This document shows positions 1 to 20,000 of a DNA stretch of 20,000 nucleotides, piece by piece. A model generated the notes under the pieces. The model made no database searches. It was not told the DNA's origin and saw only the letters and a list, made by a program, of their open reading frames with translations. The number at the start of each line of letters is the position of its first letter. Position 1 is the first letter of the stretch. The DNA comes from Trichoplax sp. H2. Lineage: Eukaryota. Location of the stretch: positions 240,175-260,174 of the forward strand of contig NOWV01000105.1 in the NCBI GenBank assembly GCA_003344405.1. Direction: 5' to 3'. A program made the position numbers and the translations under genes.

Positions 1-748
1 ACGCTAATGCTAGACTATCCAATATTCAAGTTAAAAGATACACTTCAAAATTAAACAAATACTACTACAGTAAAGAGTACATCGAAGCACCATGACTTCT
101 ATTAATTTGTTATTACGCAGAAATTACGGACATAAGGCAAATGAATCATATTTTTAAATTACAATAGCTGTTTCTGCTTCTTAGTTAGCGGCTTTATACA
201 ATACTATGCCATTCTTGTTATAAAAAATCAAATGAAGTTAAATTTCGAACTATTTATACATCATGTAATACTTCAACATTTCACGTCTAATGGCGATAAA
301 ACTGCAACATAGAAAATATAGCCATTCTAGTTTATTGATTATTGTAAGCAAGCCAACAAGAAATTAAATTAGGACTATCGATCAATTAAAAATTTTTTAA
401 TTTTTAGTATTTAATTGACATTTTTAATACTATAGTATAACGCTGTGTAAAACTGACAACCATCTATAAAATTAAGAATGTTAATCCAAATTACTATTAG
501 TTTGCTGGGAAGTTTAAAGTCTACTTGTAAAATTATCGTAAGCTGAAAAGTAAATAAGCTTGTATTGTATTCCCTGTTTTTGAAGGGTTATCTGTTAGGA
601 TAGTTAAATTAATTTAGAAGAGTAATTTAAGAAGGTAAAGGCATTCTATAATAATTTTGTCTTGGCGCATATTTTATAAGTTCAATTTAAATGTACGATA
701 AATTATAAGCTGTATTGAAGATGGCTTTGAGGATAGGCTGTTTGCACT

Positions 749-1011
749 CTAGAAATTTTGTTCGTTGTTTTCTGACAGAATGATGTCATTCCTACCAATA
801 GTTTGCAAAGCCCGCTGCAATCGGCTAATGCTAACATTGGGATGTGCCTTTTTGTACCAGTAATTGAGCAATTCCATTGCCTGGTTAAAGACATGGTCGC
901 GATTTTGTTCCATTATAACCTTAACACAAATCGTTGGATCTAGGATGGCCGCTAACTGTGGCCAGTCTGTGCCAATAGAGCTTGCAATAGGGTAAAAATA
1001 CTTCCTAGGAT
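749..1011 (-). CDS. Gene A terminal exon: Death domain
   Basis: Acceptor ATGTAG|AT at 1012/1011 is in frame with the micro-exon. Translation DPRKYFYPIASSIGTDWPQLAAILD...AMELLNYWYKK...LQRALQTIGRNDII matches the Death-domain pattern (IG.DW..LA..L, L..W, L..AL..IGR.DI). TAG stop at 749..751. Confidence 0.87.
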
Positions 1012-1631
1012 CTACATAGTACAAGTAGAAACTTTACTATGAAGTACTATACGAGTATGTTGTAACAATTTCAATTGCAAATAAATTACTTGATTTTACA
1101 TGATATAAAGTACAATATTTACATAATGAGCTCTTATGTCGCAATTAGAGTTGAATAATCATCTGGTTCGCTATAATTATTTATGTAATGGTAATAATGG
1201 CATTAGCGATAGCACAGGTGGAACTGTACTTCTATTGTAAGACTAATAGAAATAAATGGCTCTAATTCGAATTTGAATAACTCTGTAAACGAACTACTTA
1301 CTGGACAAACAATGTACAAATAAATTAAGATTGAATATTTTTTAATTCATAAATCATTATTTATTATGTCAAGTAGCTTACTAGTAGCTAGAATATTCTA
1401 ATGACGATCTTAAAAATTCGTCAGTGATATCATTATCTAGTAAAACTGTATGCGATCATATCATCAGTGGCAAACGTAGCTTAAAGAATTACATCCATTG
1501 ACGAGGTAAGGTATTCCTATGTTAGAATTTACAAGGAGTAATTGCTCTTAATCATATTTGAATCGATCTACAATTGGATTACTAAATGCAATTGAGAATG
1601 ATTGATAGATATCAATTCAATAGAGGTTTAC

Positions 1632-1658
1632 CTTCATCTTTGGTATCTTTCCATCGGT
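1632..1658 (-). CDS. Gene A 27-nt micro-exon, linker peptide (D)RWKDTKDE
   Basis: Reads CTTTAG|ACCGATGGAAAGATACCAAAGATGAAG|GTAAAC. It is phase 1-1 and frame-preserving, and the same 27-nt exon is present in genes B and C. Confidence 0.85.
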
Positions 1659-4027: not shown

Positions 4028-6146
4028 CTTTCTCTTGTACGTGTTGATTGTTATGACTGCCGTCAATAGTATTTGCTGGCGCTGTAACGTTGTTGATTTG
4101 ATTCGGTTGAAACCGTTCAACGGTACTTTTGATCCAATTTCTCGCTGTTGATGTCGACGATTTCGGCTTCCGGAGAGTGATATCGATATTCTTTTTGGTC
4201 CATTTAACTAGGCGATCATTTCCGCTTAAGGTTGCGATATACAGTGACTTCTTAAAGTTATCCACAGCCTGATCGTACTTGCCTTGGCGACGATAGACAA
4301 GTCCTATGTTGTTATATGACTTCGCAACGTGGGGATGATTGTGACCAAGGACTGACAATCGAATTTGCAGTGATTTGTCATACATATCCACAGCCTGATC
4401 GTACTTGCCTTGGCTTTTATAGACATTGCCTATGTTGTTATATGAGTTGGCAACATCAGGATGATTATGACCAAGGACTGACAATCGAATTTGCAGTGAT
4501 TTGTCATACATATCCACAGCCTGATCGTACTTGCCATGGTGACGATAGACAACTCCTATGTCGTTATATGAGTTGGCAACATCAGGATGATTATAATCAA
4601 GGACAGCCAATCCAATTTGCAGTGACTTGTGATACATATCCACAGCCTGATCGTACTTGCCTTGGCTTTTATAGACATTGCCTATGTTGTTATATGAGTT
4701 GGCAACATCAGGATGATTGTGACCAAGAACTGACAATCGAATTTGCAGAGATTTGTCATAAATATCCACAGCCTGATCGTACTTGCCTTGGTCATCATAG
4801 ACAAGTCCTATGTTGTTATATGAGTTGGCAACATCAGGATGATTATGACCAAGGACAGCCAATCCAATTTGCAGTGATTTGTCATACATATCCACAGCCT
4901 GATCGTACTTGCCTTGGCTTTTATAGACATTGCCTATTTTGTTATATGAGCTGGCAACATCAGGATGATTGTGACCATGGACTGCCAATCCAATTTGCAG
5001 TGATTTGTCATACATATCCACAGCCTGATCGTACTTGCGTTGGCTTTTATAGACATTGCCTATGTTTTTATATGACTTCACAACATCAGGATGATTGTGA
5101 CCAAGGACTGACAATCCAATTTGTAGTGACTTGTCATACATATCCACAGCCTGATCGTACTTGCCTTGGTCATGATAAACAAGTCCTATGTTGTAATATG
5201 AGTTGGCAACATGGGGATGATTGTGACCAAGGACTGCCAATCCAATTTGCAGTGACTTGTGCAACATATCCACAGCCTGATCGTACTTGCCTTGGTGACG
5301 ATAGATAACTCCTATGTTGTTATATGAATTGGCAACATCAGGATGATTGTGACCAAGAACTGCCAATCGAATTTGCAGCGACTTGTCATACATATCCACA
5401 GCCTGATCGTACTTGCACAAGCGATCATAGACAACTCCTATGTTATTGTATGACCACGCAACATCGGGATGATTATGACCTAGGACTGACAATCGAATTT
5501 GCAGCGACTTATCATACATATCCATAGCCTGATCGATCTTGGCTTGGTCATGATAGACAATTCCTATGTTGTTATATGACTTCGCAACATGGGGATGATT
5601 GTGACCAAGAACTGACAATCCAATTTGCAGTGACTTGTTATGCATATCCACAGCCTGTTCGTACTTGCACAAGTCCCAGTAGACGCACCCAATTTGATGA
5701 TAACTATCGGCAAGACGAGCATCCTTTTCGTCTAACCATTTTAATTTCATTTCCAACGATTTCTTACCGTCTTCCAGTGCTCCGTTGAAATCCCCTTGGC
5801 GTCTCTTAATCTCGCTTTCTCTTTGTAAACATTGAGCCATGCTCACTTCATCTTGCAGTTTAGTAGCCACAGTTTGTCCCTTATCACTCCATTCAACAGC
5901 TTCCTTGAATTGATATTGTAAAGTGTAAATGTCACAAAGACCAAGATAAATATCACATGCAAGTCGATCAATATCCGCACTAGGATTCGACAACGAAGCA
6001 ATCGCATCGACAGCTTGTGTATAACAAGATAGTCCGTCCACCAACTGGAAGGCAGTCTTGCATGAGATGCCCTTTTCGTACAGTGATTGTATACGGGTAT
6101 GGTGAGGAAGCACACTCGTAGAACAGACAGATTCATCATCAGCCAT
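4028..6146 (-). CDS. Gene A coding exon 1: TPR-repeat domain (about 3 divergent N-terminal TPR-like units plus 12 x 42-aa kinesin-light-chain/nephrocystin-3-like TPR units) of a TPR-Roc-COR-Death protein
   Basis: Lies within ORF 3903..6158. The ATG at 6146 (MADDESV) follows an acceptor-like TGCAG|GAAAAG at 6153/6152. Repeat consensus is VANSYNNIGxVYxxQGKYDQAVDMYDKSLQIxLxVLGHNHPD. The donor GAAAG|GTAATT at 4028/4027 is phase 1 and sits at the same position as the donor in gene B. The start codon is uncertain because an upstream exon is likely. Confidence 0.88.
4230..5740 (-). repeat. Intragenic tandem repeat: 12 near-identical 126-bp units encoding 42-aa TPRs
   Basis: The anchor 'tccacagcctg' (one variant 'tccatagcctg') recurs at 4261, 4387, 4513, 4639, 4765, 4891, 5017, 5143, 5269, 5395, 5521 and 5647. 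The period is exactly 126 with no indels. Outer boundaries are approximate. Confidence 0.97.
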
Positions 6147-8934
6147 CTTTTCCTGCACTCAATTCAAAAATATGTTAGTTAAAGGCTTGAACGACAGGTT
6201 AGAGACAAATAAGATTCAAATCAAGCTTCGTTGCAACCATTAATTGCTAATCATCGGATCGATATTATCTCTGCGTATTAATGAGGTTATGTCGGAATAG
6301 TTGTACTTGCGTGCCAGTCGTAGTTCAACAGAACAACATCAATTATTCCATTATACACAATTTTCAAGCATCAATAAATCAACTTCTACAATATTGCCTA
6401 TCTATTCCGCATGGAAGATTATCCGAAAATCATTCAATCAATCTCTGTAGATAATTACTGAAGACAACGCTATCGGACAATCGTGTGCTTACGTGTACAT
6501 TAACAAAATGCACTCCAGCTTACAAATAGATTATACTCATAATCATAATAACCATCAAACAACAATCTTTTTATTCTAATAGACAACGGTAAATAAATGC
6601 TAGCCACATCAATGATAGTGTAAAATAAGAAAGGATGCTTGCAATACAGTTTCGTTGGCGTCGTTTACCTATCTTTAATTTCTATTTTTACTTGAAATAC
6701 AATGTATAATGATGGATACCTAACGAAATAGGTTACTTACCAATGGATGTTTTAAAAATCGGCTAATAACAACTTGATGATTTTGCTGTTACGTAGATTT
6801 AATCCTACCAATCCGACTGCGCGCTGCTTATTGCAACAGGAGCTAATGGATAAAAAGAGAACGACAGGTGACATAAAACTCTACTCGGCTAAACAGCTCT
6901 ATCCAACTGCATATACACTAAATACACGCACTGATCAGCACATCTAAATACTACAGTGTATCAGCGATTACAGACTACTAACTCATTGGTTATTTCCTAA
7001 CTATAAAAACTCCTTGCAAAGTCCTGCACGAGGAAGGGCACTATTGGTAACCATGAAGCTTGCTTGCTAGAAATCCCAGTTAAACCTGCGGCTATGACAC
7101 GCTTTTATTCGTAAGTAGTCCCTATGTGGATGATGCGATAGCCGACGGATAAAGGTAAATAAATAAAATGAAGGTAAGGTAAATAAATAAATTAGGTTTC
7201 TTTGCAATGATTTGTGCATAGTCATAAGACCTTATGAAATTAGAACAGCTCTAATTTGTATTAGTTTATTAAATACGAGTTTAAGATTAACCTACGAGTA
7301 TCTTCCCTACCGAATTTCTTATGTCTTGTTAGCTTAGTAAGCCGTCAATCATATTATTTGCTAAAGTTTGATGCCAATGAACTATTGCATGGGTAGATAC
7401 AAGTTACCAACAAAATATCGTTCTCTCTAAGTAAGGATAGTTGACATATTATCCTTATCCATTTTCTTCTATTACAGTCTATCAATAAAGCTATCATTTT
7501 ATCAACAATTTGATTGCAGTCTACCGTACGCTATTTATTGTCGTGGCTCCGCAGTCTGTGTTCATTGCAATTCAATTTGATAATGAGCTTGTTACTGCCA
7601 TATAAAACTCTCAAATTATCAACTATGAAATTCATCAAGTAATAACTTAAAGGAGCGACTGTTCAGGATAGGTTTCTGATAGTAAACTGCAAGAAAGAAT
7701 AGCGATGAATATTATATAACATACTGTAGAGACATAGAGAAATGATAGCAGTCTATTTCAATATACATCATTGACATTATCCGATCCATTGAATCTACTG
7801 TAGCTCAACAAAGAATGCCATAAATTTAATAAAAGATATTGCTTGTAACAAATATTATCATTTTGTATACAACGTTCGTAGTCCGATGATGAATTAATGA
7901 TAGACATTTGCATGGTCAAATTGTAAGCCATACTAATAAAGATTGTACAATCGCAATCATGAATTTTTTAGACTAACCAGATACATCAACAACGGATTAC
8001 AACATTGGATATGCAATAAAACGGATCAATCACTTGACTGATCAGCAGTAGCATATTCTACTTTAATTGGCAACAGCCATCCAATACAGGCATTGCTGTA
8101 CAACAAGGCACTATCCTCTCAGCACTTACGCTCGCTGCATTCTCGCGCCAAAGAAGCTTCTTAGTCAACAAGTTCAGCTTCGATCCATGCTCACAGAACT
8201 CATTCTCAAGGATAGGTAATCATTTCTACGAGCATATCTCAACAGTTTTCAACAAACAAGAAGTATTTTATGATCGGTATTGTGTATGAACTAACTAGAG
8301 TTGATACTCCAACCGTATGTAAAGTTCGGATCACTCTGACTAGTTTTCGAATACTGACAAAGCTAAGTCCTTACTACCACTCATTCGTTTATTGATAATT
8401 ACAACGGCTTTTATATGTGCGCCGTCAACACTTACAGTGTAACGTTGTACAATACATAGTTTATGATATCCATATCTAGAATTAGGTAGACTTGTAAATT
8501 GTAAATTAGTCACGATAATTGATTCTATAATTATACAGCGTAAGTTAACTATCAATATGGACTGTAGATAATAACGCAGTTATCATCCATCCATCTTAAG
8601 CGTAGCATTACAAAATACATATATAGAAATACTGTAAGACATATCAATCGGAATAGAGTAAAGTAAGATCAAATTAAAATCTCCTGACAGGGTTGGCGTG
8701 AGTACTGTTTGGCCTGATTGCAAATTGCATGCTATCGATACAAGATGTAACCCTTCATACATACTGGAAGTACTGCAATCCATAGCAATTCCATATGATT
8801 ACTACCTTAATTTTATTCAATAATTAACAATCAATGAGTTGTTAATATACACCATTTAAAGAAAATTTTTAGTATACTTTTATAAACTGTTTGACAAATG
8901 ACAGTAAAAAATCAACGGAATACAGTAGCGCACG

Positions 8935-10062
8935 ATGAAGATGATATCAAGCGATTCAGCAGATGGCTTAGTTATTGGACTCATCGTCGATGATGATCGC
9001 CAATTAAACAGTGGCCAACAGTAATTTCTGCTATCGGAAGAACAATCTTCATATTAATTCAAGGAGGCTAAAAGATGTAACATAAAAAGAATCATCTACG
9101 CTTACTTCTCGTATGCACTAATTTGCACTACTTTAACATAAAAAGAAACATCTATGCTTACTTCTCGTATGCACTAATTTGCACTACTTTAACATAGATG
9201 TCGAAGGCACGCTAATGTTGGCTTCAGACGATAGAGCTAAAATGGACATGGTTAGTACTTTCATCAACTACATGGAGGAGAATTGCCAAGTCTATGCTAT
9301 ACATGCATGCTTACAAATTATTTCTAGTCAAAATAATATACCAATCTCAGCTCTAAAATGCTGAACAGTGCAAAATGGAACAGAGAATTTGGACAGTCTC
9401 CACGCTGTACTATGTAATTTTAAGTAAACTACTTCTTAAAGCTTCCTAAACTGTTTCTACATGAAGTTGATACCAATGCAATAAGTTCAAAACCAATATT
9501 GAGCGGTTAACTGGTAATATCAGGGTAACTTGCTCAACTCTGGTTAAATCAGGTGATGACATTTTACAGGTGCACTAGCTGTACTACCATCTTGTACCAA
9601 GTACTAACTCGTCTAAAATAATCAAGACAGGAGCATTCTCGTGGAAGCTGATATGCTATCGAAACTGCGATTTGATGCAGTACACTAATGTATTCTAGCT
9701 TATAAACTGTCCGTTTACTGTACAAGACTAATCAATTTCTCCATGAGGAGTACTAGAGTAGCTTCTCAAACTTGGGTAGTAACAACAAAGGTTGTACCCA
9801 CTCCATGAGCAGTAGCGCTCGACGATTACAGGAAAGGTACCGATGGTGCAATTTTAAACGAACCATAGACGGACTCTACTTGATTTTATTCATTTGATCT
9901 ACCATTGACTCAAATTATTCAAGAGTCTTTTGCTCGTTTTAGCTCATACTGTCTTGATGAAATGTCGTACAAATTGGCAGGACAAGCCTGGAGCGAGATG
10001 GAAAGTTCAAATACAGTAAAGCAATTTCGTCTTAATTTCGTACTTCGTAGCAATCATGACTA
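8935..10062 (+). pseudogene. Possible decayed plus-strand gene relic of uncertain identity
   Basis: Coding-like stretches are broken by stops (GLVIGLIVDDDRQ..., VEGTLMLASDDRAKMDMVSTFINYMEENCQVYAIHACLQ..., MLSKLRFDAVH*CILAY...). An intron-like segment GTAAC...CACTAAT...TTTAACATAG (9077..9197) would join the flanking frames in phase 1. Confidence 0.25.
9078..9196. repeat. 56-bp direct tandem duplication (about 2.1 copies, 2 mismatches)
   Basis: The unit taacataaaaagaa(t/a)catcta(c/t)gcttacttctcgtatgcactaatttgcactactt starts at 9078 and 9134, and a partial 'taacata' starts at 9190. Confidence 0.95.
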
Positions 10063-10524
10063 GAAGCTATTCACAGTCGATAACTGGCAATTAACTAGCT
10101 CTTCTTACAATTCATTATAGCAAAAGATTTCTTTATTGTCAGGATCTTTATAACTTTCATAAAAGTAGGTTAATTTTACCGTCTGAAATAACGCCACTTT
10201 GCATAAAATAGTACAGCATGAACAAGTTTAACTCACGATTAGTACAAGCAAAAATGAATAGAAACCGTAATTAACAAACGCTTTAGAATACTTTACAATT
10301 ATAAATGTTTATCCTTCACCAGCAATTTGTGAGTGCTTCATAAGTATTTAAAGTAAATTTACGATGCTTATAATGTTGTCATTTCGTTGTGCACAGGAAT
10401 AAAATGTTAAAAACTTAATTTTTACATCAGCAGATTCTTACACAAAACGTGATTGTGATGGCAAAGCTGAAAGATTGAAATCAATAACATTAAGCATTGC
10501 TAATATTGTCCATTAAATTGTTGG

Positions 10525-10530
10525 TTTATT
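10525..10530 (-). terminator. Candidate polyadenylation signal AATAAA for gene B
   Basis: AATAAA on the minus strand about 135 nt after the gene B stop. A similar spacing occurs for gene C (17115..17120). This is weak evidence in AT-rich DNA. Confidence 0.3.
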
Positions 10531-10663
10531 TCAATCAAGGCGAAATAAAACATTATTTTCTTATAACGCTAATTATTTTGATCTTGAAAAAATGCAAATA
10601 AGCACAAATAGACCATCAATAAATTAGAATCTACACTATAGTAGACGAAAGAAGATTAGTCCT

Positions 10664-10920
10664 CTAGGAATTTTGTTCTTTTGGGATAATAATATCATTT
10701 CTGTCAATCGTTTCCAAAGCGTTCCGCAATAGATTAAGAGTAGCATTTGGGTATTTCCTTCTGTACCACTGATTAAGCGATTGGATGGCACTGTTATAGG
10801 TATGACCACGATGTTTTGCTTCGATAACCTCAGTATCAATCGTTGGATCTAGGACTGTAGCTAATTTTGTCCAGTCTATACCAACACAACTAGCGATCGA
10901 GTGAAAATAGTTTCTAGGAT
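10664..10920 (-). CDS. Gene B terminal exon: Death domain (not shown in the supplied ORF track)
   Basis: Acceptor TTATAG|AT at 10921/10920. Manual translation is DPRNYFHSIASCVGIDWTKLATVLDPTIDTEVIEAKHRGHTYNSAIQSLNQWYRRKYPNATLNLLRNALETIDRNDIIIPKEQNS*. About half of the residues are identical to the gene A Death exon by hand alignment. TAG stop at 10664..10666. Confidence 0.87.
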
Positions 10921-11315
10921 CTATAAGGCACGAATGAATATATTACCACATACGTCATCTTAAAATTACTAATTGAAATTATCTTATCATGGACTAGCCG
11001 AACCCGCATACCCAGTTGTGTGCTATCAATATAACTCAATAATATAAGGAAGTACCACATGATTTAAATGTAGATACATTTGTTTTAATTTAACCTAATT
11101 CATTTCACGTATTGTTGGATACTCGCAAGTAAAGTAGTGGAGTAGTAGTTTATATGTTCTAATTATAATCTGAAATATTCGTTGGCATTCTAATTAGCTA
11201 GCAGAACTTTTTGCGATAATATCATACATAATAATCACTTCTAGTCACTATTATAATTAAATGGGTAAATTAATTACTATAATTATGAATAGAAAACGGT
11301 TTAATTGACACTTAC

Positions 11316-11342
11316 CGTCATCTCTCACATCTATCCATCGCT
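11316..11342 (-). CDS. Gene B 27-nt micro-exon, linker peptide (E)RWIDVRDD
   Basis: Reads CCTTTAG|AGCGATGGATAGATGTGAGAGATGACG|GTAAGT and is homologous to 1632..1658 and 18090..18116. Confidence 0.85.
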
Positions 11343-12042
11343 CTAAAGGAATGAAATAAAGAATAGGAATAATAAATTGGCAGTTCTATGGTAGTTGAAT
11401 TGAAGCAAATAGTAAAAGTGATGCACAGTAAAATGAAATGTACACCTAGAAACGGTTTACAGAGAATGCTCTCTTCCTCTTTCTCTATTTATGCGCTCTA
11501 AAACCTCTATATATGCGTGTCCTATAAAGCTATGGAACTGATTAGCTACGATCTAAAATTAAGAACATTCTCATACTTCTGATGGTAATGAATACTTTTG
11601 ATGTTACAAAGCAATTGCGGAAAAAATTCAACGAGTTCTATATTGCCAAGTAAACAGACTATAATAGATGAACTGGCTATACCGAAAGATTGCTATCTAT
11701 TTATTATTAATAAGAAATATATGTAAATTATAATTAGTAAATACTACCACTTCATCAACTATTATAGATTGTACAATAATTATTGTAATTTGAGAACTAA
11801 ATTAAGATGGAGATCATTGCCACTCTACTTAATCTCGGATGTGATTGAGCTCGATTGCATTAGTGTTTTGCTACAGATTAAGCAAAGGTGATGTTGTAAT
11901 AATCTTATTGTAGTGTGTAGGAACGTTTTAACCATCGAACACTTGATATTACGAATAACTTAGGCTAGCGCTCTTATCAGATACATGACGGTAAAAAAAG
12001 ACGTGGCAATAACAAAGCTACTGGCTGATTTTATATCCTTAC

Positions 12043-14193
12043 CTATCGATAACTCTTTATTATAAATCATCCAATCGTGGAGAGATTGACTAGCAAATTG
12101 CTGAGTACAATACTCGCATCGAATCCAATTGCTGTCTTCTTCTCCATATTCTTCGGCTATACTTATTTCTTCATTACACTCGTTACATTTAACGTAAAAT
12201 CGGCAACGAGCCCCTTGAAATTTTATCATCCTTTTATCCACAATGGAGATAAGCTTATTCTTGACAATATCGTGCGGCCGCTTGTTAAATATAGAATTCT
12301 TAACTTTGTCGATCACCAATTTACCAATGTCCAGCTGATTGATTTTCTGATAGCAATATTGTAAACCAATGTAAGGCCCTTCTTTCTTAATTATCAGGTA
12401 ATGATCATCATTTGCTAAATAATATTTAGCGCATTGATAATATAATTCTACAACCTTGTTATTCCATTGTATTAAACAAGATGATAGCAGGCTGTGATAA
12501 ATTCCATATGGAATATCTCCTTTCTCGTATCCGATGTAAAGCCAATCTGAGGCATGATATTTACGCAAATCAAAGGGCTTAACATTACGTGGTAACAAGT
12601 ACGGAACAAAATATTGCCACTCTTCTGTAGTATCATCCAGTTCAATTCTAATACAAAATAGGATATCATAAGATTCCATGAGTTTCAATATAATTTCCTT
12701 ACTATTTTCATCTAAATTAAATCGATTAAGGGCGTTATCAACGTATCTTCTTGGTAATTTTCCTGTTTTATAGGCTATATTATAATCTAGCTTTGCTTGT
12801 AGACTTCCTTGTCGATGATCTTTCAATTGAATAATGGCACGAAATATATTTAATAACCAGTCGACATTAGTTATAACCATCCCGTTATCGCCTATTTTAT
12901 CACAGTAGATTACCTCTCCTAATTCGTGTAGATACATTAGCACTGCTCTCAATTCATCATAACTGTCATATAATCCACATTCTTGTGATAAGGTTACTAT
13001 TTGTTGCATAGTCATAATATTACGTACTTGAGTGTCTTGAATTTGGTTAATAATAGAAGACATGCCTTGATTATGATGACTACGGATACATTTATTCAGT
13101 ATTGTAGCCATAATATATCGTCGAAAAGGAAATGGTTCATGAATAAATTGTAATGAAAACGAAAATGTCTTAATAATATGATGTAAACGATTGCAACATT
13201 CTCGGCGCTGATCTACTGCTGATGGGCTGCTATCATTAAGATTGCAATTGAAAATAATATTAGAAGAGTAGATGCTACTCGTATAAGACGGCATAGAAGA
13301 GATCAATTCATCGACATACTCATCATATCGACGATTTCGTTCTTCTACTTCTGTTGTACAATCACTGTGAGAAGCTACCAGAATAATGATAGGTAAGGAA
13401 AATTCTGCATCCCTGTCGTCAATATTAACGTAAACTTGATTTCGACTGCTGTGGCAACATATTATTGATACCAGCAATTCTTGAATAGCTTGCGAATAGG
13501 TCATATTGAGTAATTGCCCTTCTCTTGTCTTAACTAGATCTTTGACACCTTGCTCAATACTAAATACAAGAAAATAAATACTATTGGAAGACCTAAATAG
13601 ATATTGACAAACGTGGTAAATAGCTGGATCACTGAAATCCCATACTTTCACATATTGATTATCTTCAAATTTGTCTTTATTTTCGTTTATTCTAGGCGCA
13701 TAAGATTCTGCAAAACTAAATTTAGACTCAGTCTTATTAGAAGCATCTGCTATATTATCACTACTCATAGAAGACTGCTTATCGTCATCCTTTACAATGG
13801 TTAAAGATAGATTATCTGCCATTGTTAGCTGATCTTGTTGACTTTTATTTGATTTTTGCATGTCGTTATTTTGTTGACTTTCTAGCTCTGCTACGGAAAA
13901 TTCCCTTATAGCGGTCTTGATTTTATCATCTAACACCTCAGTAAAATTATATGTCTTTGAATTTTGAAGACAATAAAATTGATTGAATTCAGTTTTCAAT
14001 ATGCCATCAGAATGATTAACAACTTTATCTGGAGGTTTATTCTTGTTTGATTCTTGTTGAGTAAACACTTTCGCAATAGATGATTTGCCAATACTAGGTG
14101 GGCCAATAAACTTACCATGTATCAAATCATTAAAGCAGTAGCAATTATTCAAGGCTTTATTGTATACATTATAATATTTCTTTTCTCCTAAAA
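12043..14193 (-). CDS. Gene B coding exon 2: Roc-like GTPase (degenerate G3) + COR + CxxC-x19-CxxC motif
   Basis: Acceptor TTTACAG|TT at 14194/14193 (104-nt intron) gives VLGEKKYYNVYNKAL, matching gene A ALQEKKYYNAYSKAL. Motifs: P-loop GPPSIGKSS (14078..14104), WDFSD (13628..13642), VASHSD, LMYLHELGEVIY and YFVPYLL. Donor ATAG|GTAAGG at 12043/12042. Confidence 0.9.
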
Positions 14194-14297
14194 CTGTAAA
14201 TTGAAACGGAAGTTAGAAGAATGATACACAGATTAGACAGTATTTATTTATATTGGCTATGTAAATTAACATACTAAAAAATCAACTACAAGTTTAC

Positions 14298-15816
14298 CTT
14301 CATCTTCTGTGTGTCGAATAATATCACTATCAGGATTGCTACCGTTACTATTCCTATTTGTTAACGTTGTAAGATTGTTAGCATCGGTGCCTGTAAACAC
14401 TCCAAACCATCTAACCAAATCGTTGAAATATCTTTCAGCTAGTGTTGTACTTTGATAATAATGTGCTTGTTGCTGCTGACGAGTTGTTGCGACATGATTT
14501 CTAGTCATCTTAACGTAGGGATGATTCTCGCCTAAAGCCGGTAGGATAGCTTTAATTGTCTTGTGAAACATAGAAAGTGCCTCATCGTACTTGCCCTGTT
14601 CCTTATAGATAACCCCTTGGCCGTTATATAATTCAGCAATAAAGCTATAATCGAAATCGACGGCTGACGGTCGAATTTGCATGGATTTATTATATATCGA
14701 AAGAGCGTCTTCATACCTGTTTAGATCTATATATATTTTTGCTATACCAAATAATGTCTTTGCAATTTCGGGATGATCGCGATTAAGCGTTGATAGTTGC
14801 ATTTGAAGTGATTTCTCAAGGATACCACTGGCAAGATTGTATTGGCCTTGTTTGACATAGACATTTCCAAATTTGCGATATGCTCGAGCAATAGCAAAAT
14901 GATTTTTTTGGGGAAAGATTGTATGTCTCATATCTAGTGACAAGTTATATTTAGAAATAGCCTGTTGATAGTCCCCATTATTGCTACCAACATCCCCCAT
15001 ATGCTCATAAGTGTCCGCAATATGGGCATGATTTTTAGAAAGGAGTGCTAATCGAATGTATAATACATTATTTAGCATCGTAAAAGCCACTTTATGCTGG
15101 CCAAGATATGAGCGACAAACTGCCATTATCTGAAGTGAATTCGCTATAAGAAGATGACGATTACCGAATAAGCGCAATCGAATTTTGTGAGCAATATTTA
15201 GCATAGAAAGTGCCTTTTTAAAATTGCCTTGCCGCACATAAAAAATTCCTTCCGTATGATAGGAGTATGCGATATCGGGATGGTTTTCATCCAATACCTT
15301 CAATCGGATTTCTCGTGCTTTTCGAATCATAGCCAGCGATTCTTGATATTTGCCGCCATCGTCGTAAATACGTGCAAGTTGATGATAGGAATGAGCAACA
15401 TCTGTATGGAGGTATGTACCTAGGTAGTTTATTTTTATATCCAGAGATTTGCCACAGCATTCGAGCGCTTTATCGAAATCACCTTGCCATCTTAAAATTA
15501 AAGCTTGCTTATCTAAATAATGGGCTATTCTGATTTTATCTTGCAGTTTGTCAGCTAGATATTTCCCTATATCGTAGTATGATTTAGCTGTTTCCCATTG
15601 ATTTTTTAACGTGTAAATATAACAAATATGAAGATAGATATCACATCGAAGTCGATCAATATTATCGCAAGGAGTAGATATCGATTCAATATGATCTAAG
15701 GCTTGTCTATAGTGAATTAGACCTTCCTCTAGATTATAAAAAGTAACATATTCTTGGCCCTTTTCGCAAAGTGATTGTATATCATTCGGAAACTGTGTTA
15801 ATAGATCTGCATCCAT
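14298..15816 (-). CDS. Gene B coding exon 1: TPR-repeat domain (divergent N-terminal units plus about 7 diverged 42-43-aa TPRs)
   Basis: Lies within ORF 14266..15846. An acceptor-like AAACAG is immediately followed by ATG at 15816. The N-terminus is homologous to gene A (IQSL.EKG, IDRL.CDIYL, A.KLQD, QGDF..ALE..KSL). Repeats follow H..IA.SY...G..Y..QG.Y..AL. Donor GAAG|GTAAAC at 14298/14297 is phase 1. Confidence 0.87.
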
Positions 15817-17114
15817 CTGTTTCAATTTGATGTGAAGAAAAAGCAATCAATAGGTATATTAAAAGAGATTAGCTACTCTAGCTTATAATATCAAAACTGA
15901 ATCGATTCTAGACTCTAAGGAAAGTTAGAAGAACGATAATTAAATTAGACTTAGTTGTATTGCAATGCACACCAAATTATATCGTACTTCACAACAATTG
16001 CCAGACTATAATATCATTTTATTTTCGATCTAATTTTATGCTAATATATATACATACGTAACATATATATATTAATAATGGTCAGCATCTATTCTATTAC
16101 CTCTATTGTCAATATCAGTGAAAGAGTAGGTAGTAATGATTGACGAGTAAAGATTACCATAGTAACTTGAACGACAGATAATTGTTAAACAAAATCATTG
16201 GTGAGTATTTAAATCTAGAGCTCCTCCTATATAGGAGAAAATCAATGATGGTTCATGCTTCTACTAAAAGTCTTCTACTTAATTGGGTCTTTGGTAATTT
16301 ATTCAATAATTACTTTTTACGAATTCATCGTTATCTTGTAAGGGCGCTCGGATCTATCTATAATATTTTATTTACATATTTTTAATCAAATTTGAGTTTT
16401 TATTCATGGTCTCTGTTGTCATTACTTTGGATCAAAGTTTAAGCATTGGGCTATCGACAGCAAAACTTACATAAGTCATTCTAAATGCGTATACTTTAGT
16501 CATCAGCTGTTGTTACACAGAAAGTTTTCAATTTACCTTCAATAAGATTTTGCTTCAGTAACATACTGCAAAACCAAGTAGGATACGTTAAAAATTTATT
16601 GCACGCAAGTACGCTCTATAAAAGTATGTAGAACAGGTTTAAAGTCAATCCGCTGTCTTTATAACACTTGCCCTGTAGCATAAGATCATTTTATCATCTA
16701 GTGAACTACATCCAGGATTGATAATAAATTGACAGTATATCATGCCGTTAATATTCTAAAGTTTTTCTACTTTTCATAGACATGGATAAACTACTTGTCC
16801 TGTAACGATTTTTTTTATGATTATCATAAGATTTTACCCACAGTCAATTTGGTTATAAGCTCACTGTTGTACGCGTGAACTGAAAATAAAATTACGTGCT
16901 ATCTAAATTAGCTGAATAATAATTGCAATATTAAACGACAAATGAACGAGCTAACTAGCCACTACTGATGTAGTTAATTCTACATATGAGTACATACATC
17001 TAAAACTTGACTTCAAATACCTGTTATATCAATTATTGCAAAGTTAATAAATTTTAAAATACCAGTAGCTATGAAAATAACAAACGTAGATATTACTTGA
17101 TTATGAATTTCTAT

Positions 17115-17120
17115 TTTATT
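17115..17120 (-). terminator. Candidate polyadenylation signal AATAAA for gene C
   Basis: AATAAA on the minus strand about 145 nt after the gene C stop. This is weak evidence in AT-rich DNA. Confidence 0.3.
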
Positions 17121-17264
17121 CGTTAACATTTGAAGCATTCGAAAGTGTACTTTACAGCATATCAAATATCAGAGTTTTACATTGACAAGATCTAATTCTG
17201 AGCTCTATTATTTTGCAATTACAAATGTGTCTCGGTTAGTAAACCGCAAGAGAAGTTTGTATAT

Positions 17265-17542
17265 TTAGCAATTTTCGACCATTTTTTCTTCGACTTGGTT
17301 AGCTATAGTATTGATTTTCATCTTACGTAAAGCTGCAATAACTACAGAGATATCTGCATTTTGACCAGCGCTATTTTTCCACAATATTAGAACTTTATAC
17401 ACCTTATCGTAGCGACTATGTTCCCGATTTAATTTAATTTCATCAATTTCTATGCTGGATAAATGCAGCAAGACTCCTAAACGAAATAAATCATTTATAT
17501 GGAGTTGCTTAGCTATGATGTCGAAGTACACAGTATCCATTT
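17265..17542 (-). CDS. Gene C terminal exon: Death domain of a different subtype
   Basis: Acceptor AATATAG|AA at 17543/17542 (phase 1) joins in frame. Translation EMDTVYFDIIAKQLHINDLFRLGVLLHLSSIEIDEIKLNREHSRYDKVYKVLILWKNSAGQNADISVVIAALRKMKINTIANQVEEKMVENC* has Death-fold features (LG..L.L...EID.I, L..WK...G..A, AL..M). Confidence 0.8.
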
Positions 17543-18089
17543 CTATATTGAAATAAAATTTAAAATATTAGCCACACTCCAAGTCTTTAGGGTTGTATCT
17601 GATCTGTGATGTAAATCTAATACTAATCTTGAGCAATTCTTTTTCAGAACAACTGTAATTTTAATACTACTTATGCAGGGTTTATCAAAATAAAACTGGA
17701 ACTAATACTACTTGCTAGTATGGTCTTTTTAATAATCAATATTGGGTTAATTCAATTTTATTATTTTCATGAATTCTTACAAAAGTTTGTCCAAAAAATT
17801 CTTAAAGTAAATTAAATCAAAGAGTTTATTCATGGTTGACTGATTATTTTACAGAGTAGATCACTAATAGTTTGAATATTTTACTTGCAATTCTCTAAAA
17901 CTAGTTTGTGTTATCGTTAACTAGCAGAACTTTATGCAATGATGTCAAAGACTAGATGAAAGTATTACATTTACTTAAGGTAGAATTCTTATAGAGAATA
18001 TGCTCTCAATATTACTTCAATAATTCCAAAATTAATCACTGTAAACAATTTTGAAAGAATTAAATGATAATAATTTAGTAGAAGCTTAC

Positions 18090-18116
18090 CATTATCTTTT
18101 ACATCTTTCCATCGCT
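18090..18116 (-). CDS. Gene C 27-nt micro-exon, linker peptide (E)RWKDVKDN
   Basis: Reads GTTTAG|AGCGATGGAAAGATGTAAAAGATAATG|GTAAGC and is homologous to the micro-exons of genes A and B. Confidence 0.85.
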
Positions 18117-18844
18117 CTAAACAAGTAAAATAAAACAAGAACAATCGATTAATAGTTTTGTAGTTGCTTTGATAGAAAGAGATTGTAAAATCATAAGCAT
18201 GTCAATGAAATGTATCACGTATATTTAGAAATAATTTATAAAAAGCTCTCTCTCTCTTTCTCTGCAGGTACCTATACATGCAGATATGCTATAGTAAGTT
18301 TTATATCCTGTACAAAGCTGAGGAATGAATTGGCTGTCATTTGATTTTAAACGGTGTTCTCATTTACTAACATAGAAGAATATAATATGCTTCAAAGTAA
18401 TGATGGATAAAATCTAGCCATTACTATTTAACACATAAATGAATACAGCAGGATTAAATTCTCACCTCGAAATAGTACAAAATTATAATACGTTTTTAGT
18501 CACATGAAATATACATAAATTAGAAAATTTTTATAATTAATCCAGTGCAGCACACAAAGCGATAATTAAGGTAATCTTCTAAATTACCTACATGATAGCA
18601 TACATTTCCTTTGCTTTAATTACTTCAGCACATAATTCTGCTTATTTATATCAATGTTTTTATATATAAATAAGATAATCAAAAATAGAGTCATGATAAT
18701 CACGATGTAAAAATAAATGTGCTAATTATTAAGAATACAGTAAAAGGAATGCGTAATGGAAGAGCTCTTGCTTATAGTACATTGCAATCGTAATAATGAT
18801 AATAAAAAGAATATAAAAGCTATAAATTGTGTTCACATCCTTAC

Positions 18845-20000
18845 CTATCCATAATTTTTCATTATAAATCATCCAGTCGAGAAGAGATTGACTAGAAAAC
18901 TGCATACTGCAATATTCACATCGAATCCAATTTATATCTTTTTCGTTATATTTATCGGCGATACTTGTCTCTTCACCACATTCACTACATTTAATGTAAA
19001 ATCGACAACAAGCTCCTTTAAGCCTTACCATCCTACCATCGACAATCGAGATTAGTTTATTCTTAACAATATCTTGTGGTCTGTTATGAAATATAGAATT
19101 CTTAACTTTGTCAATAACCGATTTGCCGATTTGTGGATGATTTATTTTCTGATAGCAATATTGCAAAGCGATGTGAGATTTCTCTTTCTTAACTATAAGA
19201 TAGTAATCATCATCTACTAAATAATATTTGGCACATTGATAGTATAATTGTACTTTTGTGTTATTCCACTCTTTTAAACAAGAGGATAACAGACAATAAT
19301 AAATTCCATCAGGAAGGTATGGAAGATCGATATGTGTGTATCCAATGTACAGCCAATCTGATACATGATATTTTGATAAATCAAATGGCTTTACATCATA
19401 ATGCAACAGGTATGGAACAAAATATTGGCAGTCCTCTCCATTATTACCCTTTTCATTTCTAACAGAGCAAAGAATATCATAAGCTTCCATCACTTTTAAT
19501 ATGGTTTCTTTACTAGTTTCATCTAAATTAAATTTTTTAATAGCATAATCGATGTATATTCTTGATAATTTTCCTGTTTGGCTGGCTATCTCATATTCAC
19601 GTTTTATTTGTAGACTTCCTTCTAGACGATCTTGTAATTGAATAACTGAACGAAATATATTTAATAACCAATCGACGTTAGTTATAATAATTCCGTTATC
19701 GCCTACTTTATCACAGTATATTACTTCTCCTAAATCATGCAGATATATTAGCATTGCTTTTAATTCGTCATCACTTTCATATAATCCACATTCCTGAGAC
19801 AAAGTTACTATTTGTTGCATTGTCATAATATCATGTACTCGAGAAGCTCGAATTTGATTCATAACAACCGAGATCGCATGATTATGATGGTAACGGATAG
19901 ATTTGTTTAATATTGTAGCCATAATATACCATCGAATAGGAATAGGATTACGAATAAATGGCAATAATTGTACAAATGTCTTAATAATATAATGCAAGCG
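18845..20000 (-). CDS. Gene C (partial, truncated by window edge): COR region + CxxC-x19-CxxC motif of a third paralog
   Basis: The frame is open from the window edge (RLHYIIKTF...) and strongly similar to genes A and B (PIPIRWYIMA, YLHDLGEVIYCDKVG, YFVPYLL, PYLPDGIYYCLLSSCLKEWNN). Donor ATAG|GTAAGG at 18845/18844 is at the homologous position. Confidence 0.9.

What the first reader, a model, noticed from the sequence alone, without database searches (positions are those of the whole stretch)
17265..18116. Effector swap: gene C has a highly divergent Death-domain exon despite closely related COR, micro-exon and introns
Seen in sequence: the Death exons of A and B align almost without gaps at about 50% identity, whereas that of C shares only generic Death-fold residues. 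Yet the C COR region is very similar to A and B. C even shares intronic sequence with B on both sides of the micro-exon (ctagcagaacttt.tgc at about 11198 and 17921; gctctct..ctct.tctct at about 11468 and 18245). Inference: the terminal exon was exchanged via the phase-1 intron, with a breakpoint between about 17543 and 17900. This would rewire the same switch module to a different downstream adaptor, as with effector-domain swapping in NLR families.
Basis: partly seen in the sequence, partly recalled or inferred. Interest (0 to 1): 0.7.

Follow-up and report, generated by a model that had tools for sequence, protein, structure and literature searches.

The report
Swappable death-domain tail exons in Trichoplax
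In the simple animal Trichoplax, the last exon of a family of immune-receptor-like genes, which encodes a death domain, has been exchanged repeatedly and recently between these genes and even passed to two unrelated adaptor-type genes, which could rewire cell-death signalling, although that function is untested.

Summary
Swapping is real: COR and Death (DD) trees of 17 placozoan TPR-Roc-COR-DD genes conflict strongly (AU p<1e-34).

But gene C is not the fresh recombinant. Its tail is colinear with other 'C-type' genes, so the switch relative to gene B (17543-17855) is old. The fresh chimeras are gene A (junction at about 1297) and its near-twins: COR 91-97% identical, DD 24-27%.

The exchange goes beyond the family. 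A C-type DD tail 94-96% identical to a Roco gene's now ends a CARD gene, whose T. adhaerens counterpart keeps its own DD, and a ZU5-UPA gene. Gene B's tail sits on another ZU5 gene.

Junctions show microhomology or filler. 42 of 45 DD exons start in phase 1, so swaps stay in frame. Four of eight mapped junctions are unproductive, so this is a rearrangement hot zone, not a targeted mechanism.

The family is known (Civiero 2014) and earlier scan notes describe its architecture. I found no report of the tail traffic. Signalling rewiring is inferred only.

The parts
17265..17542 (-). Gene C terminal Death-domain exon (C type, FADD-like; phase-1 acceptor; stop at 17265-17267)
   Evidence: Pfam, RNA joint 18090-17542, model and fold search
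17543..18089 (-). Gene C intron 2; colinear with other C-type genes. The old B/C switch lies in 17543-17855
17855..17947 (-). Intron-2 homology box shared with B (11129-11225) and A (about 1368-1464)
18090..18116 (-). Gene C 27-nt phase 1-1 micro-exon
18117..18844 (-). Gene C intron 1, colinear with B and C156 intron 1
18845..20000 (-). Gene C COR-coding exon (cut by the contig end; Roc P-loop and TPR part not in the contig)
10664..10920 (-). Gene B DD exon (A type). The same tail occurs at 92-96% DNA identity on C802 (ZU5-UPA gene), C325 and C345
11316..11342 (-). Gene B micro-exon
12043..15816 (-). Gene B TPR exon (about 14298-15816) and Roc-COR exon (12043-14193)
6200..10663 (.). Spacer between B's stop and gene A's start; travels with B's tail and an A-like gene body at C325, C345 and C250
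1923..6146 (-). Gene A TPR and Roc-COR exons; COR 92-96% identical to genes with C-type tails
1632..1658 (-). Gene A micro-exon
1290..1300 (-). Recent junction in gene A intron 2 (about 1297): 95% identity to the C250 gene ends abruptly
749..1011 (-). Gene A DD exon (A type, ankyrin-DD-like), foreign to its COR; donor not found

Best explanation
These are placozoan TPR-Roc-COR-DD (ROCO) genes whose DD is a single terminal exon with a phase-1 acceptor. The clusters are a rearrangement hot zone. Breaks in the AT-rich tail introns are rejoined by microhomology or with filler DNA, often as segmental copies of the block [upstream gene's tail - spacer - next gene's body]. Any such join that puts a body in front of a DD exon is in frame. 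This has repeatedly exchanged two deeply diverged DD classes (A type, ankyrin-DD-like; C type, FADD-DD-like) among ROCO paralogs, and exported ROCO tails to CARD-DD and ZU5-UPA-DD genes. Gene C carries a C-type tail gained once, long ago, by the common ancestor of C, C250 and C156 (switch within 17543-17855 relative to B; direction inferred, about 65%). Gene A is a recent reverse chimera. SHOWN: splicing of C, incongruence, junction positions, phase, cross-family copies. INFERRED (about 40%): TPR sensing triggers Roc-COR dimerisation, the DD nucleates a DD-DD assembly with a CARD-DD adaptor of the matching class and then a CARD-caspase, so a tail swap changes the output.
For: COR 91-97% identical among five genes whose DDs fall into three groups 24-47% apart. 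DD class split 100/100. Class needs 6 changes on the COR tree (at least 4 forced by starred branches; shuffled mean 5.8); AU p 2.6e-38 and 1.5e-35. Step changes in identity: A~C250 falls from 95% to background at +626; C345 switches from A (97%) to C156 (92-96%) at +132. C448 is a CARD gene 93-94% like C459, with its own DD exon deleted and a C250-type tail (94%) joined; T. adhaerens P0031 has the same CARD (98%) with the native DD (41% to C448's). ZU5-UPA paralogs (83-86% alike) carry three different DDs: C985 native A type, C945 C type, C802 B type. T. adhaerens P0002 has a DD 100% identical to C945's. 42 of 45 DD acceptors score best as phase 1. Junctions show 0-9 nt overlap or 15-16 nt filler. 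J1, J2, J4 and J5 each occur in two or more contigs; the C654 junction is also a loose end in run X11.
Against: Four of eight mapped junctions give no intact chimera (C654 joins into a TPR exon; C250 upstream lacks the DD; C325 has no upstream gene in 12 kb; C802 has a stop and C345 is an orphan). DD exons show pN about equal to pS (0.053/0.051), against 0.027/0.085 for COR, which fits relaxed constraint. The C448 junction is in one contig only and was not checked in reads. Expression of the A, C448, C945 and C345 chimeras was not tested. The donor of A's tail was not found. The order of B, C and C156 on the COR tree is unresolved, so the direction of the B/C switch is uncertain. Apart from B and C, COR-to-DD links rest on adjacency and gene models.
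Confidence: 0.75

Rival explanations
1. Same rearrangements, but neutral churn: the chimeras are by-products of an unstable tandem cluster, and DD class does not matter for function.
For: Half of the mapped junctions are unproductive. There are orphan and broken DD exons, for example C58:236962 with two stops. DD pN is about equal to pS. I searched from DD exons, which favours finding DD-bearing joins.
Against: All 14 DD exons compared among recent copies are open frames. C448 lost its own DD exon and gained another in frame. The ZU5 + C-type DD combination is present in both G000 and the T. adhaerens protein set. Genes B and C, with different classes, are both spliced and keep constrained CORs.
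Confidence: 0.35
2. One reading: gene C itself recently received a foreign exon, while A and B keep the native one.
For: B/C homology ends at about 17855. The genes branching outside (C186, C486, C1007, C280) are A type, so C type is probably derived in this clade.
Against: C's tail is colinear with C250 and C156 with no step in identity. No donor above 77% exists apart from the 96% sister copy C506. A's intron 2 is C-type sequence up to 1297, so A is the recent chimera.
Confidence: 0.07
3. Homologous recombination or gene conversion in the shared intron-2 box or the COR exon, rather than end-joining, produces the chimeras.
For: A roughly 95-nt box is shared by A, B, C and C-type paralogs just 5' of the switch points. 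A's 3' flank resembles C250's 3' flank (73%, z 14.9). Breakpoints recur near +132/+137 and +622/+626.
Against: Recent junctions join non-homologous positions (A +132 to C156 +298-305; CARD downstream flank to C250 +822) with at most 9 nt overlap or filler.
Confidence: 0.15
4. Assembly artefact: collapsed paralogs were mis-joined.
For: The assembly is fragmented, many copies lie at contig ends, and C34 and C190 have gap-flanked duplications.
Against: The junctions have no N gap or long overlap. They recur in separately assembled contigs 93-98% alike. One is seen in run X11, and one combination in a second assembly. Three C-type tails are mutually 94-96% alike, more than two alleles.
Confidence: 0.05
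5. Rapid divergence of gene C's DD with no exchange.
For: DD exons are less constrained than COR.
Against: DD classes are monophyletic across CORs only about 40% alike, while CORs 92-96% alike carry different classes.
Confidence: 0.01

Closest known systems
Trichoplax ROCO expansion (Civiero et al. 2014, PMC4104024; passages seen). Deposited models P0004 and P0005 are named 'Kinesin light chain' and 'Nephrocystin-3'
   Same: At least 17 ROCO genes with TPR, CARD and death domains around Roc-COR; these genes belong to that set.
   Different: The passages list architectures only: no DD classes, no incongruence, no junctions, no traffic to CARD or ZU5 genes.
Brown-algal ROCO exon shuffling (PMC11378527; passages seen)
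   Same: ROCO genes diversified by phase-compatible exon shuffling and proposed as immune receptors.
   Different: There the LRR sensor exons shuffle. Here the terminal output domain is exchanged, and across protein families.
Effector-domain turnover in fungal NLRs (PMC13449251) and domain grafting in lophotrochozoan RLRs (PMC8998645); passages seen
   Same: Sister genes with different effector or death-fold domains, inferred from tree conflict.
   Different: The switch here is a Roco GTPase with a C-terminal DD, and donors and recipients are 92-96% alike with base-level junctions, some differing between Trichoplax assemblies.
Bacterial 'EAD principle' (Kaur et al. 2021, PMC8195603; passages and section 5 seen)
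   Same: Closely related copies of a small death-like adaptor domain on core and effector proteins, proposed to link them homotypically.
   Different: That is a bacterial, operon-based prediction. Here copies arise by intronic rearrangement in an animal, and binding is untested.
PIDDosome: PIDD (ZU5-UPA-DD) with RAIDD (CARD-DD) (architecture recalled; abstract starts in search listing)
   Same: The recipients have ZU5-UPA-DD and CARD-DD layouts.
   Different: No orthology shown. The DD profiles match FADD or ankyrin best, and the CARD call is weak.

Membership tests
ROCO proteins | COR domain | tested here: met
   COR-A above cut-off in A, B and C
ROCO proteins | Roc GTPase domain directly before COR | tested here: inconclusive
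   Met for A (above cut-off). B scores below cut-off but has G1 and G3 motifs. For C the contig ends; the 99% sister C506 shows the G3 region but not the P-loop
Death domain (PF00531) | Profile match and six-helix bundle | tested here: met
NLR (STAND) receptors | NACHT or NB-ARC ATPase core | tested here: not met
   The core is Roc-COR; no NACHT or NB-ARC hit in the 8 window ORFs
NLR (STAND) receptors | Repeat sensor + nucleotide switch + death-fold output | tested here: met
   Met for A and B, in reversed order (TPR first, DD last); a resemblance of layout only
Exon shuffling by intronic recombination | Breakpoints in introns | tested here: met
   All four productive junctions are intronic; an unproductive one enters an exon
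Exon shuffling by intronic recombination | Compatible intron phase | tested here: met
   42 of 45 DD exons with a candidate acceptor score best as phase 1 (46 examined); RNA-confirmed only for B and C
Exon shuffling by intronic recombination | Incongruent domain trees | tested here: met
PIDDosome-like receptor/adaptor pair | ZU5-UPA-DD and CARD-DD architectures | tested here: inconclusive
   ZU5/UPA by Atlas features 0.97 and structure, no Pfam hit. CARD below Pfam cut-off (E 0.003-0.03); its profile's best PDB hits are CARDs, Apaf-1 E 0.007
PIDDosome-like receptor/adaptor pair | DD-DD binding and caspase activation | not testable with these tools
   Needs biochemistry
Transposon-borne cassette (Helitron or Pack-MULE type; features recalled) | Fixed ends, terminal inverted repeats or hairpin, transposase | tested here: inconclusive
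   No strong inverted repeats in the two spacers; ends vary; far ends mostly run off contigs

The most novel reading that the evidence does not exclude
The phase-1 DD exon is a selected 'wiring plug'. Copying a receptor's DD onto a CARD or ZU5-UPA gene creates matched receptor-adaptor pairs that assemble homotypically, so placozoan lineages carry different, still-changing death-signalling circuits. This would be an animal counterpart of the bacterial EAD principle, with recurrent breakpoints acting as preferred exchange sites.
Probability: 0.25. Interest if true: 0.85.

Novelty: new variant of a known kind. Interest (0 to 1): 0.62.

Why it matters
Domain shuffling in animal death-fold networks is usually inferred from old tree conflicts. 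Here donors, recipients and junctions are still 92-96% alike, and one swap differs between two Trichoplax assemblies. That gives natural matched pairs (same sensor and switch with a different DD; same CARD with a different DD). They allow direct tests of how DD specificity is rewired and of what kinase-less Roco proteins signal to.

Tried and rejected
Complex prediction of gene C's DD with the C448 DD gave no verdict (score 0.07, controls not folded); it is not used either way.

The metagenome contig scan with C's DD found no relative. Pfam and PDB sequence searches did not name the ZU5-UPA exon; only the Atlas did.

No near-identical donor was found for gene A's tail among fetched loci or among the 50 A-type matches. 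None was found for C's 3' flank beyond C506. No gene was found upstream of the C325 tail.

A loose end in run X1 joins an A-clade-like micro-exon to a B-type DD. No such locus appeared among 5 pattern matches, so it is left as a lead. Run X11 showed no joint for gene C, with little cover there.

The excess of replacement changes between C448 and C945 (17 against 1) is not significant (p 0.14).

The 25-gene tree includes one doubtful COR-DD link (C585: a T. adhaerens model puts that DD at the start of the next gene), so the counts rest on the 17-gene set. That set left out 6 of 23 pairs: four with other DD classes, one partial COR and one long branch.

The careful 44-row COR tree did not finish; only its quick tree was seen. 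Upstream context of most A-type DD exons outside ROCO loci was not examined.

Ten literature searches found no report of DD tail exchange in placozoans. Subscription papers are not covered and no supplements were read; Kamm 2019 Dataset S3 could bear on this.

Full report
1. What is in the window. The window is G000:C58:240175-260174 and ends at the contig end. Matching deposited proteins are labelled Trichoplax. Three minus-strand genes share the plan TPR exon, Roc-COR exon, 27-nt micro-exon, terminal Death-domain (DD) exon; for C only the COR end onward is in the contig. The quoted intron motifs are real homology.

2. The exon belongs to gene C. I laid 4 of the 20 listed runs on 6200-20000. 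Their type is a guess by the tool, but they hold GT-AG joints. 18845-18116 is seen in 3 of 4 runs and 18090-17542 in 2 of 4. One X6 contig spans COR, micro-exon, DD and flank. B's two tail joints are seen in 3 of 4. The deposited model of C uses an internal acceptor and loses the start of the DD; the RNA supports 17542. The exon folds as a six-helix DD nearest FADD. Profiles of the two classes match FADD/Fas best (C type) and ankyrin best (A type); they are homologous but distant.

3. Family test. Genome searches gave 59 COR, 22 C-type and 50 A-type matches (lower bounds). I fetched the DNA around most COR hits and paired 23 CORs with a downstream DD. I used 17 with A- or C-type DD. The DD tree splits A from C type at 100/100. 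On the COR tree the class needs 6 changes, at least 4 forced by starred branches, no fewer than for shuffled labels (mean 5.8). Forcing the COR clade of gene A onto the DD tree, or the C-tail genes onto the COR tree, is rejected at p 2.6e-38 and 1.5e-35 (groups were chosen after seeing the data, so the p values are indicative). The identities alone suffice: A, C190:164k, C190:182k, C345:13.9k and C250 have CORs 91-97% alike, but their DDs fall into three groups 24-47% apart.

4. Who is the recombinant. Positions are counted from the last COR base. Gene C's tail aligns colinearly with C250 (intron 2 z 22.5) and C156 (z 25.3; intron 1 z 37), with no step in identity. So C's COR-DD link is as old as these paralogs. 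B's DD groups with that of the earlier-branching C186 gene (94/93), and the other outgroups are A type, so a single gain of C type is the simplest reading. The B/C/C156 order is unresolved. Gene A is 95% like C250 to +626 (window 1297) and then falls to background, while C250 continues with C-type homologs; A and its copy on C190 are therefore the recent chimera. C345:13.9k and C190:182k are A-like to +132 and then 92% like C156.

5. Tails leave the family. The C250 tail recurs at 94-96% DNA identity on C448 and C945. C448 is a CARD-like gene 93-94% like the CARD-DD gene at C459:22-24k. It lacks the roughly 450-bp segment holding the native DD exon, and 850 bp further on is joined to the ROCO intron at +822, in frame by the deposited model and my reading of the splice sites. 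T. adhaerens P0031 has the same CARD (98%) with the native DD. C945 (and C112) is a ZU5-UPA gene joined just after its own micro-exon donor to ROCO intron 1 at +137, with a 9-nt overlap. Its paralog C985 keeps a native A-type DD, and C802 carries gene B's tail at 95%. T. adhaerens P0002 has a ZU5 body 90% like C802 and a DD identical to C945's. B's tail plus spacer also precedes A-like gene bodies on C325 and C345, and the spacer alone does so on C250, with different left ends. This suggests that the copied block is [tail - spacer - next body]. The micro-exon of C325 is seen joined to a B-type DD in 2 of 4 runs.

6. Mechanism. Junctions show 0-9 nt overlap or 15-16 nt of filler, which fits end-joining (inference). 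Of 46 DD exons examined, 45 had a candidate acceptor and 42 score best as phase 1, so a body-to-tail join is in frame by default. The process is not targeted: 4 of 8 mapped junctions yield no intact chimera. C654 joins an A-clade micro-exon into B's TPR exon at 15214, a join also seen as a loose end in run X11; this shows that such junctions are real DNA. Breaks recur at +132/+137 and +622/+626, which I cannot explain. All 14 DD exons compared are open, but pooled pN is about equal to pS (0.053/0.051, five pairs), against 0.027/0.085 for COR (three pairs). That fits relaxed or mixed selection.

7. Function (inferred). By general knowledge of death-fold signalling (recalled), DDs assemble homotypically with adaptor DDs. 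Both DD classes occur on receptor-like (TPR-Roc-COR, ZU5-UPA) and CARD-like genes, and Kamm 2019 (PMC6321704, passages) reports CARD-caspase genes and no mention of Roc. A swap would therefore plausibly change the adaptor, and an exported DD would match adaptor to receptor, as proposed for bacterial EADs (PMC8195603, section 5). Nothing here shows binding.

8. Known and new. The ROCO expansion is known (PMC4104024, passages). Effector turnover and exon shuffling are known in other receptor families (PMC11378527, PMC13449251, PMC8998645; passages). Earlier scan notes describe the architecture, and none of those shown mentions tail exchange. Ten searches found no report of this traffic, within a library that lacks subscription papers; supplements were not read. 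Verdict: observation confirmed, swap real but old for gene C, and part of a recent cross-family exchange of DD tails. New variant of a known kind; interest 0.62.

Noticed in passing
G000:C58:236962-237216 (L084), 3.7 kb 3' of gene A's DD: Orphan C-type DD pseudo-exon with two stops and its own intron-2 box (78% like C250)
   Followed up: partly
window 17478-17542: Deposited model P0001 uses an internal acceptor and drops the start of the DD; RNA contigs use 17542
   Followed up: yes
window 4240-5670 and A-like copies: TPR 'NHP' unit number varies among near-identical bodies: 11 (gene A), 4 (C250), 7 (two on C345)
   Followed up: partly
window 15214 / G000:C654:694-1083: A-clade micro-exon and donor joined into gene B's TPR exon; the same join is a loose end in run X11
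   Followed up: yes
window 10922 (run X1): Loose end resembling an A-clade micro-exon joined to a B-type DD, a combination not found in G000
   Followed up: partly
A-clade intron 1 +132/+137 (window about 1790) and intron 2 +622/+626 (window about 1297): Independent junctions reuse nearly the same sites from opposite sides; a short AAGCTT-containing motif recurs near the second
   Followed up: partly
window 405-705 (A +1219..+1518): Gene A's 3' flank is 73% like the 3' flank of C-type tails on C250, C448 and C945
   Followed up: partly
window 6200-10600: Spacer has a 56-nt tandem duplication (9078-9189), many variant contigs, and a minus-strand GT-AG joint 9067-9433 in run X7
   Followed up: no
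G000:C186:7-36 kb, C579, C585, C318/C570: Other ROCO subclades also mix DD classes; C318 and C570 are 90% alike upstream but 76% in the DD
   Followed up: partly
G000:C247, C483, C426, C651, C158 (L034, L038-L041): Five copies of another A-type DD region at 92-95% identity; C483 has a TPR exon upstream
   Followed up: no
P0026 (T. adhaerens) / G000:C527, C585: A model joining DD, NB-ARC and Roc-COR in one protein
   Followed up: no
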